DNA of 24,660 nucleotides from a virus. The stretch lies in UHGV virus genome UHGV-2140017; one strand, given 5' to 3'. How positions within the stretch are numbered: position 1 is the first letter of the stretch; every line of letters begins with the position of its first letter. Below are positions 1 to 13,876 of the stretch, one piece after another. A program made the translations under genes and the position numbers. The notes under the pieces were generated by a model that saw nothing but the letters and a program-made list of their open reading frames with translations, did not search any database and was not told the origin of the DNA.

Positions 1-333
1 TGCCTCCCGGTAAGTCGCCGCCAGTCCACAGACGACTCGCAATGCGCAAAAAAACATATCAGACTGGCAATGCCCCTCCGCATAGGGGGATTCACCACAC
101 GGATAATTTAGGATGTAGTCATAGGCGGCGTCAATAACTGACACTCTGTCAAAGGCATCATTACGATGCCTTTTGCACAGTGCTAATCACTGGATCTAAT
201 AAGGGGCCAGAGCAAAGCGATTACCCCGGCTACCAGCACGCCATCAGCCAGGATTGACATCATTTGCTGGTGAAGTCGATAGCAACCACCAGAAACAAAA
301 GCACCCCGGCTGCGGCCCAGCGAAGTTTACCGA

Positions 334-10640: not shown

Positions 10641-11086
10641 AAGTCACCTCCGCAGTAATTTCCGGCCAGATAGCATGACCCGGCAGAATCATTCATGTTT
10701 CTGGCGTTTCGAACAGAAGCATTCTTAAGACGCAGGTATCGCTCTCTTGCTTTAACCGTACAGTTGCTGTCACAAAGTTGCTGCCATACCGTCGCCGCAC
10801 GGCGGTAATAGCGTTTCTCTTCCAGCTTTTTGGCTGTCGCTTCAAGGGCAAGAATCTCCCCCGAAAGCCCACCAGGCAGGTACTCTTCAATATCGATGGA
10901 TCCCGCAACGAAGTAGATAAACCCACCAGTAACTTCAACGCTGGCAAGTTCCCCGTCGTAGTACAGGCGATGAACAGCGCTCTTCACTGTTACCGGTTTG
11001 GTTTCAGGAAATGCCGCAGTTATATCGCGCAGCATTTTGCCTGGATTCTTCTCAATAAATTCAAAGATCGACTTGGCTATGTTCAT
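10628..11086 (-). CDS. Putative ANR/PerC-family regulator-like protein
   Basis: C-terminal KLEEKRYYRRAATVWQQLCD resembles the RRAA-x-x-W core I recall for PerC/ANR proteins; N-terminal half looks like a winged helix. ATG overlaps the upstream stop. Confidence 0.4.
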   Translation of the reverse strand: MNIAKSIFEFIEKNPGKMLRDITAAFPETKPVTVKSAVHRLYYDGELASVEVTGGFIYFVAGSIDIEEYLPGGLSGEILALEATAKKLEEKRYYRRAATVWQQLCDSNCTVKARERYLRLKNASVRNARNMNDSAGSCYLAGNYCGGDLCSD

Positions 11087-11994
11087 CCCCGGAACCCCCG
11101 TGGAATCGTGGTTTGTACTGGACTAATTGAATTAACATCCCGCGGTCTGGTTTTGTCCCACGACTCCCTTGGCGGGCGGCCTTTAGCATCCCAACGGATA
11201 GCGCTTTGCAGATATCCCTCGAATTTTTTAGGGCCAAAAAGTGTCTCGGGGCGCATGTACTGGTATTGCTCGTCGTTGCCATGCCAGTGCTCATGCTTGA
11301 CGTCAATTACCAGTTTCAAGTCGCTAACGGTATGGCCTTCGCGGAGGCGGGCGCGAATGTTCTCCAGCGAGGTCTTAGATTTCTGGTAACGGGAACCGCT
11401 GACCAGATTCAGGTGTGCCAGAACTTCGATCGCGTTATCGGTAATAACAACTTCAGGATCCGGCTTATCTTCGGGTTCCGCAGGAGCCCGACAAGAAGGT
11501 TTTTTAGATGACGGATCTAATGACGGATCTAATGACGGATCGCCTTCAACCATTGAGGGGTCCTCCCGCAATATTTGAGGGGGTACAGACCCATTATTTG
11601 AGGCATCAGAATTTGACCCCTCAAATTTTGAACCCTCAAATTCTGAGGCATCAAATTTTGATTGTTCACGTGGCGTTGCGTAGAAGATTTTTGCTTCAGC
11701 TGCTGCACGTTCAAGCATGTCCACATTGAGTTTATAAACGTTCGAATTATTCTTTCCGCCCACGCGCCGTTCCTGCTTCTTCAGCCAGCCTTTAGCCTGA
11801 AGCTTTTTGATAGCGCTGCGGACAGTATTCTCGCTCTTGGCGCCGATCTGTCGCTGAATAGTGGTTACCGCTGGCCATGACACACCTTCGTCATTACTGA
11901 AATCTGCCAGGCGAGCCATGACCGCTATTTCTGAGATTATCAGCCCTTTGAAAGCGCATGCTTCCCATACGAGGCCGTGTAATTTACTGCTCAT
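11083..11994 (-). CDS. Phage replication initiator (O-like: N-terminal HTH, low-complexity linker, conserved phage C-terminal domain)
   Basis: N-terminal winged-helix region (ISEIAVMARLADFSNDEGVSWPAVTTIQRQIGAKSENTVRSAIKKLQAKGWL), linker encoded by the iteron DNA (DPSLDPSLDPSS), C-terminal domain typical of phage replication proteins. Position matches lambda O. Confidence 0.65.
   Translation of the reverse strand: MSSKLHGLVWEACAFKGLIISEIAVMARLADFSNDEGVSWPAVTTIQRQIGAKSENTVRSAIKKLQAKGWLKKQERRVGGKNNSNVYKLNVDMLERAAAEAKIFYATPREQSKFDASEFEGSKFEGSNSDASNNGSVPPQILREDPSMVEGDPSLDPSLDPSSKKPSCRAPAEPEDKPDPEVVITDNAIEVLAHLNLVSGSRYQKSKTSLENIRARLREGHTVSDLKLVIDVKHEHWHGNDEQYQYMRPETLFGPKKFEGYLQSAIRWDAKGRPPRESWDKTRPRDVNSISPVQTTIPRGFRG
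11508..11661. repeat. Iteron-like repeat array inside the replication initiator gene (candidate phage origin)
   Basis: Three tandem 12-bp units ATGACGGATCTA/ATGACGGATCTA/ATGACGGATCGC, then several direct and inverted copies of TTTGAGG/CCTCAAATT and two copies of GAGGCATCA(G)AATTTTGA in an AT-rich stretch. Confidence 0.55.
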
Positions 11995-12163
11995 GGCTAC
12001 CCTCTACTTCCCTGAACTTGCGTTGAAACTGATCGAGTGGGCTAAAGCACTCGTGGGAATAGCCTTCCCGCAGGTAGATGACGCGACGTGTCTCAGGCTC
12101 CCAGCGGATAACTCTGACTGGATTGCCATAGTGGTCTTTGAACTTCCGGTTAACTTCTCGCAT
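11984..12163 (-). CDS. DUF4222-like small protein (59 aa), absent from the ORF track
   Basis: Reads MREVNRKFKDHYGNPVRVIRWEPETRRVIYLREGYSHECFSPLDQFQRKFREVEGSHEQ in a different frame from the listed 115-aa ORF. GGAGGG RBS ~10 nt upstream; stop overlaps the replication gene start by 11 nt. Confidence 0.55.
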   Translation of the reverse strand: MREVNRKFKDHYGNPVRVIRWEPETRRVIYLREGYSHECFSPLDQFQRKFREVEGSHEQ

Positions 12164-12335
12164 AACGCTTTAGCCCTCCGGTTAAAGACCCCCACAACTC
12201 CGCGTGCCCGACTGTGGTTACACTCGACCCATTTACCGCATACCATGCGCTCATACCGAAACGACGAAACGCCCGGGATCGGGTACATCCGTAGTTGCGG
12301 TAATTGAAGATTTACGATTAAATTGCTCATGCGGA

Positions 12336-12887
12336 TTATTTCTCCATACACAAAGATTTATTCGCCACGACGCCCGGAGCTGCACACTCGCGGGCGTCAC
12401 TCTTTTCTGGCTGGCAAAAGACACGGAAAAGCAATGTCAAATGTTCCTGCCATTTCGCCATCACCTGATAACTGTTCTCCTCGATCTGCTCGCGTTCTGC
12501 CTGGTCAATAACACCGTCAGCTGTAGCTTTACGGAGATACTGTGAGTGCTTTCCGATCCACTCGATAGACTCCATCAGGCGCTGGTTAATATCGGCGTTG
12601 TCCACATCCTCAATGTCTGCCAGCGGCACAAAGACCCCGTTCGAGTGGCGCGCTATCGCATTGGCGATATGATTCGTCCCACCAGCACGCTGTAGAACCA
12701 TTGCCCAGCCGAGAGGGAAAATTTGATCACCATCGGCACGTAAGCGGTTAAACAATGCGTTTTCAGTAACGCCAAGCCATTCAGCTGCTTCTGCATACCC
12801 CCCGTCCAAATCAGTGATCGTTTTTTTAATCGCAGCTACCAGCCAAGCCGGCTGCTTATCAACTTTCCATTCTGGTTCTATACCCAC
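12336..12887 (-). CDS. CII-like / CP76-YdaT-type phage regulatory protein (putative)
   Basis: 183-aa ORF 28 nt downstream of cro, the cII position. GTG start preceded by AGGGGT. Family call rests on position and size only. Confidence 0.45.
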   Translation of the reverse strand: MGIEPEWKVDKQPAWLVAAIKKTITDLDGGYAEAAEWLGVTENALFNRLRADGDQIFPLGWAMVLQRAGGTNHIANAIARHSNGVFVPLADIEDVDNADINQRLMESIEWIGKHSQYLRKATADGVIDQAEREQIEENSYQVMAKWQEHLTLLFRVFCQPEKSDARECAAPGVVANKSLCMEK

Positions 12888-12915: not shown

Positions 12916-13146
12916 TTACACCCCTGAAGCGCTATCGTTCTCATTAGCACCCTCGCCATAGAGCAACCAATGAGGATCGCAATGCAGGGCTGAAGACAAT
13001 TCAATGATGTAACGGGGCCTCTTTGTTAAACCCGCCTCGATCGCTTGTAATGACTGCTGGGTCATTCCGACCAATTCAGCCAATTGCGCTTGTGAGAGAT
13101 TCATCTCTTCACGTTTATTCTTTAATCTTTGAGAAATTGATCCCAT
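12916..13146 (-). CDS. cro: Cro-like HTH (XRE-family) repressor
   Basis: 76 aa with LSQAQLAELVGMTQQSLQAIEAG helix-turn-helix; divergent from cI across the operator region; GGAGG RBS. Confidence 0.8.
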   Translation of the reverse strand: MGSISQRLKNKREEMNLSQAQLAELVGMTQQSLQAIEAGLTKRPRYIIELSSALHCDPHWLLYGEGANENDSASGV

Positions 13147-13243: not shown

Positions 13244-13876
13244 ATGAGCCTTGCAGAACGCGTAAAACAAAAAAGAATCGAACTTGGTCTTACTCAAGAG
13301 CAAGCAGCTGAAAAGGCAGGAATAAGGCAACAATCATGGGCCAGCATTGAGGATGGAAAAACTAAAAAGCCTCGCAACATAGTAGGAATAAGCAAAGCAC
13401 TTAAGTGCGACCCAACATGGTTGATGAACGGTGGGCCTTTCATGGCTCTGGCCGATGTGAATTCAAGGAAAGTACCTTTGATCAGTTACGTCCAGGCTGG
13501 GGCGTTAGCAGAAAAACACCCTATTGATGCATTTGATGGTAGCTTCGAATACATCATGACTGACCTTGATATTTCTGAGTTTACTTTTGCACTAAGGATA
13601 GAAGGTGATTCAATGGAGCCTGACTTTAAAGAAGGCGACATTATCATTGTTGATCCCGAGTTAGAGCCCGTTCCGGGCGAGTTTGTTGTTGCTAAAAATG
13701 GTGAAAATGAGGCTACTTTTAAAAAGTACCGTCCTACATTTACCGATATTTCAGGCCGCCAGCAATATGAACTGGTCCCCCTTAATGACGACTACCCCAC
13801 CATTAATAGCTCTGAACGCCCGTTGAAAATTATCGGCGTAATGGTCGAACATAGAATTTACAGGCGAAAAAGGTAA
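13244..13876 (+). CDS. cI: CI-type phage repressor (HTH plus LexA-like S24 peptidase autocleavage domain)
   Basis: N-terminal HTH LTQEQAAEKAGIRQQSWASIEDGKTKKP; C-terminal S24 features (GDSMEP with catalytic Ser, downstream Lys in ATFKKY). GGAGG RBS. Confidence 0.9.
   Translation: MSLAERVKQKRIELGLTQEQAAEKAGIRQQSWASIEDGKTKKPRNIVGISKALKCDPTWLMNGGPFMALADVNSRKVPLISYVQAGALAEKHPIDAFDGSFEYIMTDLDISEFTFALRIEGDSMEPDFKEGDIIIVDPELEPVPGEFVVAKNGENEATFKKYRPTFTDISGRQQYELVPLNDDYPTINSSERPLKIIGVMVEHRIYRRKR

What the first reader, a model, noticed from the sequence alone, without database searches (positions are those of the whole stretch)
11984..12351. Hidden DUF4222-like gene in an alternative frame; the listed 115-aa ORF is probably spurious
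The 115-aa ORF at 12004-12351 has S/R-rich wrong-frame composition and no RBS. A 59-aa ORF in another frame (11984-12163, minus) has a strong GGAGGG RBS, a compact fold-like sequence with a REGY-x-HEC core that I recall as DUF4222-like, and a stop overlapping the replication gene start. The ~170 bp between it and the CII-like gene is then non-coding leader.
Basis: seen in the sequence. Interest (0 to 1): 0.4.

Follow-up and report, generated by a model that had tools for sequence, protein, structure and literature searches.

The report
Two overlapping prophage genes: ymfM and DUF4222
The 59-codon DUF4222 gene is real, but so is the longer reading frame it sits inside, a relative of the E. coli cell-division inhibitor gene ymfM, so one stretch of DNA encodes two proteins and it is unclear which one causes the published ymfM effect.

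Summary
The 59-aa ORF (11984-12163, minus) is a bona fide DUF4222 gene: Pfam 62 bits against a cut-off of 27, dN/dS 0.05, a GGAGGG Shine-Dalgarno site, and a stop lying 11 nt inside the replication gene. NCBI's PGAP pipeline already annotates this gene in relatives.

The "spurious" 115-aa ORF is the homologue of e14 ymfM/sfiC of E. coli K-12. Its likely start is the ATG at 12330, giving 108 aa.

The ~170 bp "leader" is not non-coding. It encodes a conserved N-terminal domain of about 60 aa:
- dN/dS is 0.36, against about 1.2 in the other two frames.
- The domain occurs as a free-standing 53-67-aa gene elsewhere.
- AlphaFold2 gives it pLDDT of about 90.

The C-terminal tail that overlaps DUF4222 is not constrained as protein sequence and is predicted disordered. 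Even so, its frame is kept open. In 29 species there are 0 stops where 55 are expected, while control loci in which the two genes are separate show 14 stops against 12.9 expected.

Both genes are therefore real and overlap. The K-12 reference genome annotates only ymfM, and the published ymfM clone also carries the DUF4222 ribosome-binding site, start codon and codons 1-53. The assignment of SfiC division inhibition to YmfM is therefore not frame-resolved.

The parts
12336..12887 (-). CII-like / YmfL-family regulator gene. It lies immediately upstream and its stop codon is TAA 12336-12338.
   Evidence: Pfam Phage_CP76 3e-9. NCBIfam NF041471 phage_reg_YmfL, 191 bits against a cut-off of 90. phrog_101 3e-62.
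12342..12345 (-). GGAG 11 nt upstream of the ymfM-like ATG. It lies inside the 3' end of the ymfL-like gene. Together with the ymfL-like stop 5 nt before the ATG, this suggests coupled initiation.
   Evidence: Read directly from the sequence. K-12 e14 has the same layout, with an ATGA stop/start overlap.
12004..12330 (-). ymfM/sfiC-family gene: 108 codons plus TAG, from ATG 12330 to TAG 12004-12006. The mechanically listed 115-aa ORF (GTG 12351) is this frame extended upstream.
   Evidence: phrog_1170 2e-13, and K-12 YmfM hits the same family at 5e-70. BLASTP against K-12 YmfM gives 38% identity at E=3e-16. The ATG is conserved in relatives. The frame is open in all related loci.
12145..12330 (-). 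Conserved N-terminal domain of the YmfM-like protein (residues ~1-62). Predicted as three beta strands plus a long helix.
   Evidence: dN/dS 0.355 in this frame against 1.25 and 1.13 in the others, a 3-nt indel only, and minimum substitutions of 44/40/67 by codon position. Free-standing 53-67-aa homologues exist. AlphaFold2 pLDDT is ~90 for residues 10-62. Profile-profile probability is 97.7% against the e14 type.
12007..12144 (-). C-terminal tail of the YmfM-like protein, read in the frame displaced +1 nt from DUF4222. It is Ser/Thr/Ala-rich and predicted disordered. It is not constrained as amino-acid sequence but is kept free of stops.
   Evidence: dN/dS ~3 in this frame within the overlap. 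pLDDT <50 for residues 65-108. 0 stops against ~2 expected per lineage. Codon pairs co-vary so that T[AG]A and TAG never arise.
12174..12179 (-). GGAGGG Shine-Dalgarno site for DUF4222. In the YmfM frame it encodes the conserved ...NRR... motif.
   Evidence: Read from the sequence. Where a Rha/ANT gene follows the N-terminal module instead, the same GGAGGG serves that gene.
11984..12163 (-). DUF4222 gene: 59 codons plus TAA, nested in the ymfM-like gene, with its stop lying inside the replication gene.
   Evidence: Pfam PF13973, 62.4 bits against 27. phrog_1343 3e-31. dN/dS 0.05. Intact in 79 distinct loci, with an ATG, GTG or TTG start. AlphaFold2 pLDDT 83.8 with an SH3/Tudor-like barrel.
12000..12006 (-). 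Junction with the replication gene. The YmfM-frame stop TAG (12004-12006) is built from DUF4222 codon 53 (GTA) plus the next G. It overlaps the GAGGG Shine-Dalgarno site (12000-12004) of the replication gene, which is in the same frame as ymfM.
   Evidence: Codon 53 is always NTA (GTA, ATA or TTA) followed by G or A in all 59 distinct DNAs. Sequence read directly.
11083..11994 (-). Replication initiator gene (HTH_36 plus Phg_2220_C), the downstream partner of both overlapping ORFs.
   Evidence: Pfam 3e-23 and 1e-8. phrog_428 2e-63.

Best explanation
The interval holds two genuine protein-coding genes of the early-right operon of a lambdoid Klebsiella prophage, written in two frames of the same DNA.

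Gene 1 runs from ATG 12330 to TAG 12004 (108 aa). It belongs to the ymfM/sfiC family known from the E. coli e14 prophage. It has a folded, selectively constrained N-terminal domain of about 60 aa. It is followed by a disordered tail of about 46 aa whose sequence is simply whatever the +1 frame of DUF4222 dictates.

Gene 2 runs from ATG 12163 to TAA 11984 (59 aa). It is a DUF4222 protein, a small SH3/Tudor-like barrel. It has its own Shine-Dalgarno site and start codon and is strongly constrained.

Shown here: both frames are conserved and open, each has its own kind of constraint, and the two modules can exist apart.

Inferred mechanism:
- Ribosomes leaving the ymfL-like gene start ymfM.
- They read past the DUF4222 start and terminate on the Shine-Dalgarno site of the replication gene.
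- DUF4222 ribosomes terminate 8 nt inside that gene.
- Both ORFs therefore deliver ribosomes to the replication gene start (translational coupling). This would explain why the ymfM frame is kept open and ends at a fixed place even though its tail sequence is free to vary.

Inferred functions:
- The YmfM-like protein is a candidate FtsZ-ring / cell-division inhibitor, by homology to e14 YmfM.
- The DUF4222 protein is a small regulatory or replication-accessory protein like RgdR.
For: DUF4222 is real:
- Pfam 62.4 bits.
- dN/dS 0.05, with 44-47 of 51 third codon positions variable.
- Intact in all relatives.
- It lies directly upstream of, and overlaps, a replication gene in Klebsiella, Pectobacterium, Yersinia, Providencia and the RgdR locus of E. 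coli O157.

ymfM is real:
- Homology to K-12 YmfM.
- N-terminal dN/dS of 0.355 against 1.13-1.25 in the other frames.
- Free-standing N-terminal modules of 53-67 aa. In the Citrobacter koseri locus L084 and the metagenome locus L085 the order is ymfL-like, then the module, then Rha/ANT, then DUF4222, then rep. Four of 37 surveyed species have the modules separated and two (Yersinia) have them adjacent.
- AlphaFold2 pLDDT of ~90 for residues 10-62.

The overlap is maintained by selection:
- The YmfM frame is open in 59/59 distinct DNAs.
- Across 29 species loci there are 0 stops against 55.3 expected. These loci form 8 clusters at 80% nucleotide identity. P(open) is 0.05-0.17 per lineage.
- Controls with separate genes show 14 stops against 12.9 expected, and 0, 3, 1, 5, 3, 2, 2, 0 stops in a second set.
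- Codon pairs co-vary. GTG16, ATA19 and CTG31 occur only before CGN. GTC, ATC and CTC occur before AGR. Val-Ile sites are always GTY. Controls use GTG-ATT at the same site.
- The YmfM stop is always made from an NTA codon 53.
- Deeply diverged lineages with about 50% DUF4222 identity (L094, Pectobacterium L095) keep the same nested layout.
Against: - There is no direct expression evidence (ribosome profiling, peptides) for either product in this phage or in e14.
- The periodicity of variable columns in the N-terminal part is modest (29/27/38, chi-square p=0.06), and dN/dS of 0.36 is a weak constraint.
- Related sequences are not independent, so the stop-avoidance statistics depend on how many lineages are counted (4 to 17 clusters, depending on the threshold).
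- Two control lineages with separate genes (L084, L098) and the two Yersinia 'adjacent' loci also lack +1-frame stops.
- The coupling mechanism and both functions are inferred, not shown.
Confidence: 0.85

Rival explanations
1. One reading: only DUF4222 is a gene. The long ORF is a chance shadow frame and the ~170 bp upstream is untranslated leader.
For: - Gene callers and PGAP usually call DUF4222 and leave the rest unannotated.
- Only 11 database clusters exist for the long frame, against more than 100 for DUF4222.
- The tail has wrong-frame composition and dN/dS of ~3.
Against: - Coding-type constraint upstream: 0.355 against ~1.2.
- A conserved ATG right after the ymfL stop.
- Free-standing homologues of the upstream part.
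- A confident fold.
- 0 stops against 55 expected inside DUF4222, with calibrated controls.
- No RNA family, promoter or terminator in the 'leader'.
Confidence: 0.06
2. The N-terminal module is a real small gene, but its read-through across DUF4222 is an inherited accident with no selective value. The tail is neutral and the open frame reflects shared ancestry.
For: - The tail is dispensable where the module stands alone (53-67 aa).
- Tail sequence is unconstrained and predicted disordered.
- Some non-nested DUF4222 genes also lack +1 stops (L084, L098, Yersinia).
Against: - Synonymous sites in the overlap are saturated (dS 1.6-2.1), yet unsafe codon pairs never appear, while the same codons are used freely in safe contexts.
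- The stop position is fixed through three different codon-53 amino acids.
- Lineages with ~50% DUF4222 identity still keep the frame open.
Confidence: 0.07
3. One fusion protein: a programmed -1 ribosomal frameshift joins the N-terminal module to DUF4222.
For: - The DUF4222 frame is -1 relative to ymfM.
- Single-nucleotide indel variants that fuse the two exist in databases (L082; P0115, P0118).
Against: - There is no conserved X XXY YYZ slippery heptamer before the DUF4222 start in the window or in K-12 (read).
- DUF4222 keeps its own Shine-Dalgarno site and an ATG, GTG or TTG start in all loci.
- It is a free-standing gene in many genomes.
- The fused forms are sporadic and look like indel errors.
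Confidence: 0.02

Closest known systems
ymfM (b1148, SfiC) of the e14 cryptic prophage of E. coli K-12, annotated as 'cell division inhibitor YmfM'
   Same: - Same position, directly after the ymfL/CII-like gene and before the replication gene.
- Same PHROG family, phrog_1170.
- 38% identity over the full length, with N-terminal domains homologous at 97.7% probability.
- The same nested DUF4222 ORF in the same relative frame. In K-12 this ORF is at NC_000913.3 1204001-1204180, starts with TTG, and is not annotated in that record.
   Different: - The N-terminal domain is a different allelic type: type A (...PQLR..PxxG...FRYERMVxGxWVxCNHSRA...) against e14 type B (...VEYCYAVNVPG...FAEWAVGDFN).
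- Division inhibition has been shown only for the e14 DNA segment, and with constructs that also carry DUF4222 codons 1-53 with its ribosome-binding site.
- Nothing has been tested for the Klebsiella version.
RgdR (ECs1581) of E. coli O157:H7 prophage CP-933C / Sp7, the only characterised DUF4222 protein. It activates LEE1 and type III secretion and represses motility.
   Same: - The DUF4222 domain (Pfam 2e-23) is 41% identical to the window protein over 49 residues.
- It is prophage-borne and small.
- It lies directly upstream of, and overlaps by 4 nt, the element's replication gene, a DUF927 primase.
- It too was missed by the original EDL933 annotation.
   Different: - RgdR is 99 aa with N- and C-terminal extensions and an RGD motif at residues 20-22 that affects its activity. 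The window protein is 59 aa and has VNR at the aligned place.
- RgdR sits in a P4-like element, not a lambdoid immunity/replication region.
- No ymfM-like gene is annotated over it in the Sakai record. The alternative frames there were not examined.
Overlapping (overprinted) gene pairs of small phages and lambdoid phages, for example lambda Rz/Rz1 and phiX174 B within A and E within D (from general knowledge)
   Same: One DNA segment is read in two frames. One product is well constrained, while the other is compositionally odd, disordered and fast-evolving in the overlapped part.
   Different: - Here the two halves also occur as separate, non-overlapping genes in related prophages. The overlap is therefore an extension of gene 1 across gene 2 rather than a de novo gene.
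- Selection seems to act on keeping the frame open and on where it stops, not on the tail sequence.
The lambda cII-O interval (oop RNA, po promoter, untranslated spacer). This is the model behind the 'leader' idea (from general knowledge).
   Same: The position is the same, between the CII-like gene and the replication initiator gene.
   Different: - No Rfam match at E<=1.
- No promoter-like or terminator-like site within 12004-12351. The one terminator-like match near the finding (11960-11975, plus strand) lies just inside its low end and is no more than the shuffles give.
- The interval is fully coding.

Membership tests
Pfam PF13973 (DUF4222) | Score above the curated gathering threshold (27 bits) across the whole 53-position model | tested here: met
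   62.4 bits, E=2.9e-17, residues 3-54 against model positions 4-53 of 53.
Pfam PF13973 (DUF4222) | Family-invariant residues (G13, V18, I29, R32, Y35, C39, P42, F50 in window numbering) and a small size of 55-75 aa | tested here: met
   These columns are invariant in alignment A2 of 41 diverse members that includes the window protein. The protein is 59 aa.
Pfam PF13973 (DUF4222) | Purifying selection on the reading frame | tested here: met
   dN/dS 0.047-0.060. Variable columns are 14/14/47 of 51 by codon position.
RgdR subfamily of DUF4222 (regulator of type III secretion) | ~99-aa protein with an RGD motif at residues 20-22, which affects activity | tested here: not met
   The window protein is 59 aa. 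The RGD motif lies just N-terminal of the aligned stretch (window 8-56 against RgdR 24-70). Extrapolated, it would fall at about window residues 4-6 (VNR), which is not RGD.
RgdR subfamily of DUF4222 (regulator of type III secretion) | Low-affinity DNA binding and transcriptional effects on LEE1 and motility | not testable with these tools
   This requires experiments. The SH3/Tudor-like model is compatible with it but not diagnostic.
YmfM / SfiC family (phrog_1170; E. coli b1148) | Sequence similarity to K-12 YmfM, including the part not shared with DUF4222 | tested here: met
   phrog_1170 at 2.1e-13. BLASTP 38% identity at E=3e-16. N-terminal profiles give 97.7% probability at E=1.9e-12. The N-terminus alone hits phrog_20047 at 1.4e-4.
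YmfM / SfiC family (phrog_1170; E. coli b1148) | Position immediately downstream of the ymfL/CII-like gene with a coupled start, and upstream of the replication gene | tested here: met
   Window: the ymfL-like stop at 12336-12338 is followed by the ATG at 12330. K-12: ATGA overlap.
YmfM / SfiC family (phrog_1170; E. coli b1148) | Inhibits FtsZ-ring formation and causes filamentation when expressed | not testable with these tools
   This has been shown only for the e14 segment. That construct is not frame-resolved.
Dual-coding (overlapping) gene pair | Both reading frames intact across diverged relatives, beyond chance | tested here: met
   DUF4222 is intact in 79 of 79 loci. The YmfM frame shows 0 stops against 55.3 expected in 29 species, while controls show 14 against 12.9. 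Codon-pair covariation supports this.
Dual-coding (overlapping) gene pair | Amino-acid-level purifying selection on both products inside the overlap | tested here: not met
   Within the overlap, only the DUF4222 frame is constrained (0.05). The YmfM frame gives ~3. The YmfM constraint lies upstream of the overlap.
Non-coding leader or small RNA between cII and the replication gene (lambda oop-like) | An RNA family match, or promoter/terminator signals, together with absence of coding constraint | tested here: not met
   No Rfam match at E<=1. No signals in 12004-12351. Coding constraint is present.

The most novel reading that the evidence does not exclude
The SOS-inducible division inhibition assigned to YmfM (SfiC) in E. 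coli is caused wholly or partly by the nested, unannotated DUF4222 protein. The ymfM tail would then exist only to carry ribosomes to the replication gene.

Every published construct and deletion I could read removes or expresses both ORFs together.
Probability: 0.2. Interest if true: 0.65.

Novelty: new member of a known kind. Interest (0 to 1): 0.5.

Why it matters
For this window, the correct annotation is two genes, not one, and there is no leader.

More widely:
- The same nested pair is present in e14-type prophages of 2009 of 5426 complete E. coli genomes. A survey of the type-A module found it in at least 30 species of Enterobacterales, across about 15 named genera, plus one metagenome bin labelled Geobacteraceae that may be mis-binned.
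- The two main annotation sources disagree. The curated K-12 reference record lists only ymfM. PGAP lists only DUF4222 for the identical sequence.
- The 2020/21 identification of ymfM as sfiC used an ORF clone that also contains the DUF4222 ribosome-binding site, its TTG start and 53 of its 59 codons, and a deletion that removes both. Which protein blocks Z-ring formation can therefore be tested with two silent point mutations.
- The case is also a clean natural example of selection keeping a frame open and fixing its stop without constraining the encoded sequence.

Tried and rejected
- **Programmed -1 frameshift.** No conserved slippery heptamer was found. DUF4222 has its own start codon and Shine-Dalgarno site in every locus. 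The fused database proteins (L082, P0115, P0118) are sporadic 1-nt indel variants.
- **Small RNA, promoter or terminator in the 'leader'.** Rfam gave no match at E<=1. The consensus scans found nothing inside 12004-12351 beyond chance.
- **PDB sequence search with a DUF4222 profile.** No hit at E<=10.
- **NCBIfam.** No model exists for either small protein.
- **Locus search with the very diverse DUF4222 alignment A1.** It failed because no stretch was conserved enough. Single queries and the YmfM alignment A4 were used instead.
- **Papers not held.** The published J Bacteriol version of the ymfM paper (PMC8117526) and the e14 analysis (PMC331406) are not in the library. I could not check whether they contain frame-resolving controls.
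- **The first type-B dN/dS run** was invalid because of an unaligned 3-nt indel. It is not used.
Full report
**1. What is in the sequence**

On the minus strand the window carries a lambdoid immunity/replication block:
- a cI-like repressor, 13244-13876 on the plus strand;
- a cro-like gene, 12916-13146;
- a CII/YmfL-family gene, 12336-12887 (NCBIfam phage_reg_YmfL, 191 bits);
- the two ORFs of the finding;
- a replication initiator, 11083-11994 (HTH_36 plus Phg_2220_C);
- a PerC-like gene.

The DNA is 99% identical to Klebsiella phage Kp4866-6.

GGAGGG lies at 12174-12179, 10 nt before the ATG. The TAA of the short ORF falls 8-10 nt inside the replication gene.

**2. The short ORF is a real DUF4222 gene**

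- It scores 62.4 bits on Pfam PF13973 (cut-off 27, E=2.9e-17) and 3e-31 on phrog_1343.
- In 80 related viral contigs plus two E. coli loci the ORF is intact in all 79 distinct sequences, starting with ATG, GTG or TTG.
- Nei-Gojobori dN/dS in its frame is 0.05, and 44-47 of 51 third positions vary.
- Database searches return more than 100 clusters, nearly all named 'DUF4222 domain-containing protein'. PGAP annotates it in related E. coli prophages. This half of the finding is correct, but it is already known to automated annotation.
- The one characterised family member I found is RgdR (ECs1581) of E. coli O157:H7. It is a 99-aa prophage protein that activates LEE1 and type III secretion, represses motility and binds DNA weakly and non-specifically. 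It is 41% identical to the window protein over 49 residues.
- In every context examined, the DUF4222 gene lies directly upstream of a replication gene and overlaps it by 4-11 nt. These contexts are the window, Pectobacterium, Yersinia, Providencia, Citrobacter and the RgdR locus, where the partner is a DUF927 primase.

**3. The long ORF is not spurious: it is ymfM**

In E. coli K-12 the e14 prophage has ymfL, then ymfM (b1148, 112 aa, annotated 'cell division inhibitor YmfM'), then the replication-gene remnant.
- The window ORF hits the same PHROG family as K-12 YmfM: phrog_1170 at 2e-13, against 5e-70 for K-12.
- It is 38% identical to K-12 YmfM over its full length (E=3e-16).
- Inside K-12 ymfM, in the same relative frame, there is an unannotated 59-codon ORF. 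It starts with TTG and is preceded by GGAGA (NC_000913.3 1204001-1204180). It is 80% identical to the window's DUF4222 protein.
- The likely start of the window gene is the ATG at 12330, not the GTG at 12351. That ATG is conserved in relatives, lies 5 nt after the ymfL-like stop, and has GGAG 11 nt upstream.

**4. The 'leader' encodes a conserved domain**

The ~167 nt upstream of the DUF4222 start come in at least three allelic types, A (the window), B (e14) and C. All begin M-(N/S)-(S/N)-L and all are open in the ymfM frame. Profile-profile comparison relates type A to B at 97.7% probability and A to C at 90%.

For 13 type-A sequences from several genera:
- dN/dS is 0.355 in the ymfM frame, against 1.25 and 1.13 in the other two;
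- the only internal indel is 3 nt;
- minimum substitutions per codon position are 44, 40 and 67.

Codon-usage likelihood also favours this frame: -0.07 against -0.45 and -0.50.

The same module exists as a free-standing gene of 53-67 aa (P0111-P0114).
- In a Citrobacter koseri prophage and in a metagenomic contig, a Rha/ANT gene sits between the module and DUF4222. The order is ymfL-like, module (59 or 63 aa), Rha/ANT, DUF4222, rep. There the conserved GGAGG serves the Rha/ANT start instead.
- PHROGs has a separate 63-aa family for such modules, phrog_20047.

AlphaFold2, with only 10 sequences, gives pLDDT of ~90 for residues 10-62 (three strands and a long helix) and below 50 for residues 65-108. 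No solved structure resembles the model. No RNA family, promoter or terminator was found in the interval.

**5. The overlap is maintained**

Inside the overlap the ymfM frame shows no amino-acid constraint (dN/dS ~3, an artefact of the constraint on DUF4222). Yet the frame never closes.

*Resampling.* When synonymous codons of each DUF4222 protein are resampled with local codon usage, about 2 stops are expected in the +1 frame. The probability that the frame stays open is 0.05-0.17 per lineage.

*Observed, nested arrangement.*
- 0 stops in 59 distinct DNAs.
- 0 stops in 10 lineage representatives. These include two with only ~50% DUF4222 identity, L094 and Pectobacterium L095, where the gene caller left a 189-nt 'gap' that in fact holds a type-A ymfM.
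- In a one-genome-per-species survey, 30 of 37 species carrying the type-A module have the nested arrangement, with ymfM ORFs of 108-134 aa. One of them, L110, is cut by its contig end at 83 aa. Across the 29 measurable loci there are 0 stops against 55.3 expected. These loci form 8 clusters at 80% nucleotide identity.

*Observed, controls.* Where the two genes are separate, the counts behave as the null model predicts: 14 stops against 12.9 expected, and 0, 3, 1, 5, 3, 2, 2, 0 in a second set. The stops are typically at Val28-Ile29, written GTG-ATT.

*Codon pairs in the nested loci*.
- The Val-Ile and Val/Leu-Asn sites are always NTY.
- GTG16, ATA19 and CTG/CTA31 occur only before CGN.
- GTC, ATC and CTC occur before AGR.
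- The 'unsafe' codons are used freely where the next base makes them safe.

*The stop.* The ymfM stop is made from DUF4222 codon 53, which is GTA, ATA or TTA. That is three different amino acids with an invariant third base, followed by G or A. In the window this TAG overlaps the GAGGG Shine-Dalgarno site of the replication gene, which is in the same frame as ymfM.

**6. How it most likely works**

*Shown.* There are two conserved ORFs in two frames. Each is separable from the other. DUF4222 is constrained as a protein. ymfM is constrained as a protein upstream of the overlap, and within it only as an open frame with a fixed end.

*Inferred.*
- The genes form a translationally coupled chain: ymfL, then ymfM, then rep.
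- ymfM ribosomes pass over the DUF4222 start and terminate on the rep Shine-Dalgarno site.
- DUF4222 ribosomes terminate just inside rep.
- This would explain selection on openness and stop position without selection on tail sequence. It fits the stand-alone modules, whose stops also overlap the next gene's start.

*Function by homology.*
- The YmfM-like protein is a candidate inhibitor of Z-ring formation.
- The DUF4222 protein is a small regulatory or replication-accessory factor like RgdR.

Both functions are untested here.

**7. Relation to the literature**

- Ansari et al. cloned 'the open reading frame' of ymfM into pBAD24 and deleted ymfM. That ORF (1203822-1204160) contains the DUF4222 GGAGA, its TTG start and codons 1-53 of 59. 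The whole Pfam domain spans residues 3-54.
- The earlier library clone carried both ORFs intact.
- No frame-resolving control appears in the preprint. I could not read the journal version.
- No paper in the searchable library mentions ymfM and DUF4222 together.
- The curated K-12 reference record annotates only ymfM. PGAP annotates only DUF4222 on the identical sequence of another MG1655 assembly.
- The stronger phenotype of the construct that puts the vector's start signals on the ymfM frame (57 um, against 8.9 um for the library clone) mildly favours YmfM as the inhibitor. The conditions differ, however, so I put the alternative at about 0.2.

**8. Verdict**

The finding is real and half right. 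The hidden DUF4222 gene exists, and PGAP already annotates it in relatives. The long ORF and the 'leader' are also coding. The locus is an ordinary member of two known families arranged as an overlapping pair. Its interest lies in the evidence that the overlap is maintained by selection, and in the ambiguity this creates for a published gene-function assignment.

Noticed in passing
L001 3502-3681 (= NC_000913.3 1204001-1204180, + strand): E. coli K-12 MG1655 e14 carries an intact DUF4222 ORF of 59 codons inside ymfM. It starts with TTG and is preceded by GGAGA. The reference record does not annotate it. PGAP annotates it, and not ymfM, on the identical sequence of another MG1655 assembly (NZ_CP032667.1).
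   Followed up: yes
window 11508-11671: Iteron-like repeats lie inside the replication initiator gene. There are four to five ~15-nt-spaced copies of TTTGA(G/C)(G/C)C(A/C)TCAAAT with dyad symmetry, and three copies of ATGACGGATCTA. This may be the phage origin lying within the initiator gene, as in lambda O.
   Followed up: no
window 11861-12307 (+ strand): A 148-aa ORF antisense to DUF4222 and the start of the replication gene matches two PHROG families (phrog_13771 at 3e-23, phrog_14536 at 4e-12). It has no Pfam hit. This probably shows that PHROGs contains families built from shadow ORFs of this conserved region.
   Followed up: no
L084 3001-4059 and L085 3001-4050; also L108, L112, L117, L123: In some Citrobacter, Pseudocitrobacter, Erwinia, Trabulsiella and Mixta prophages, about 700 nt separate the ymfM N-terminal module from DUF4222. 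In L084 and L085 this spacer is a Rha/ANT (antirepressor-like) gene. It was not examined in L108, L112, L117 and L123. The conserved GGAGG at the end of the module becomes the Shine-Dalgarno site of the inserted gene.
   Followed up: partly
L082 (IMGVR_UViG_2690315794_000004) about 1330-1700; proteins P0115, P0118, P0141, P0142: Sporadic single-nucleotide indels fuse the ymfM N-terminal module in frame to DUF4222 or produce frame hybrids. They look like mutations or assembly errors rather than a regular product.
   Followed up: partly
L102 (Mangrovibacter plantisponsor NZ_QGTS01000033.1) about 1668-1700: The DUF4222 ORF is cut by a stop after 11 codons, while the ymfM frame over it stays open (113 aa). 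This is either a pseudogenised DUF4222 or a sequencing error.
   Followed up: no
L099 3720-6148 (E. coli O157:H7 Sakai, prophage Sp7): rgdR (ECs_1581) overlaps by 4 nt the start of the DUF927 primase gene ECs_1582. It therefore shows the same 'DUF4222 immediately before the replication gene' linkage as the lambdoid loci, which may bear on what RgdR does for its own element.
   Followed up: partly
L002 1964-2504 (E. coli strain 1943, NZ_CP023359.1): The YmfL-family gene upstream of the nested pair is annotated as frameshifted. In that locus the ymfM frame runs open for 743 nt upstream.
   Followed up: no
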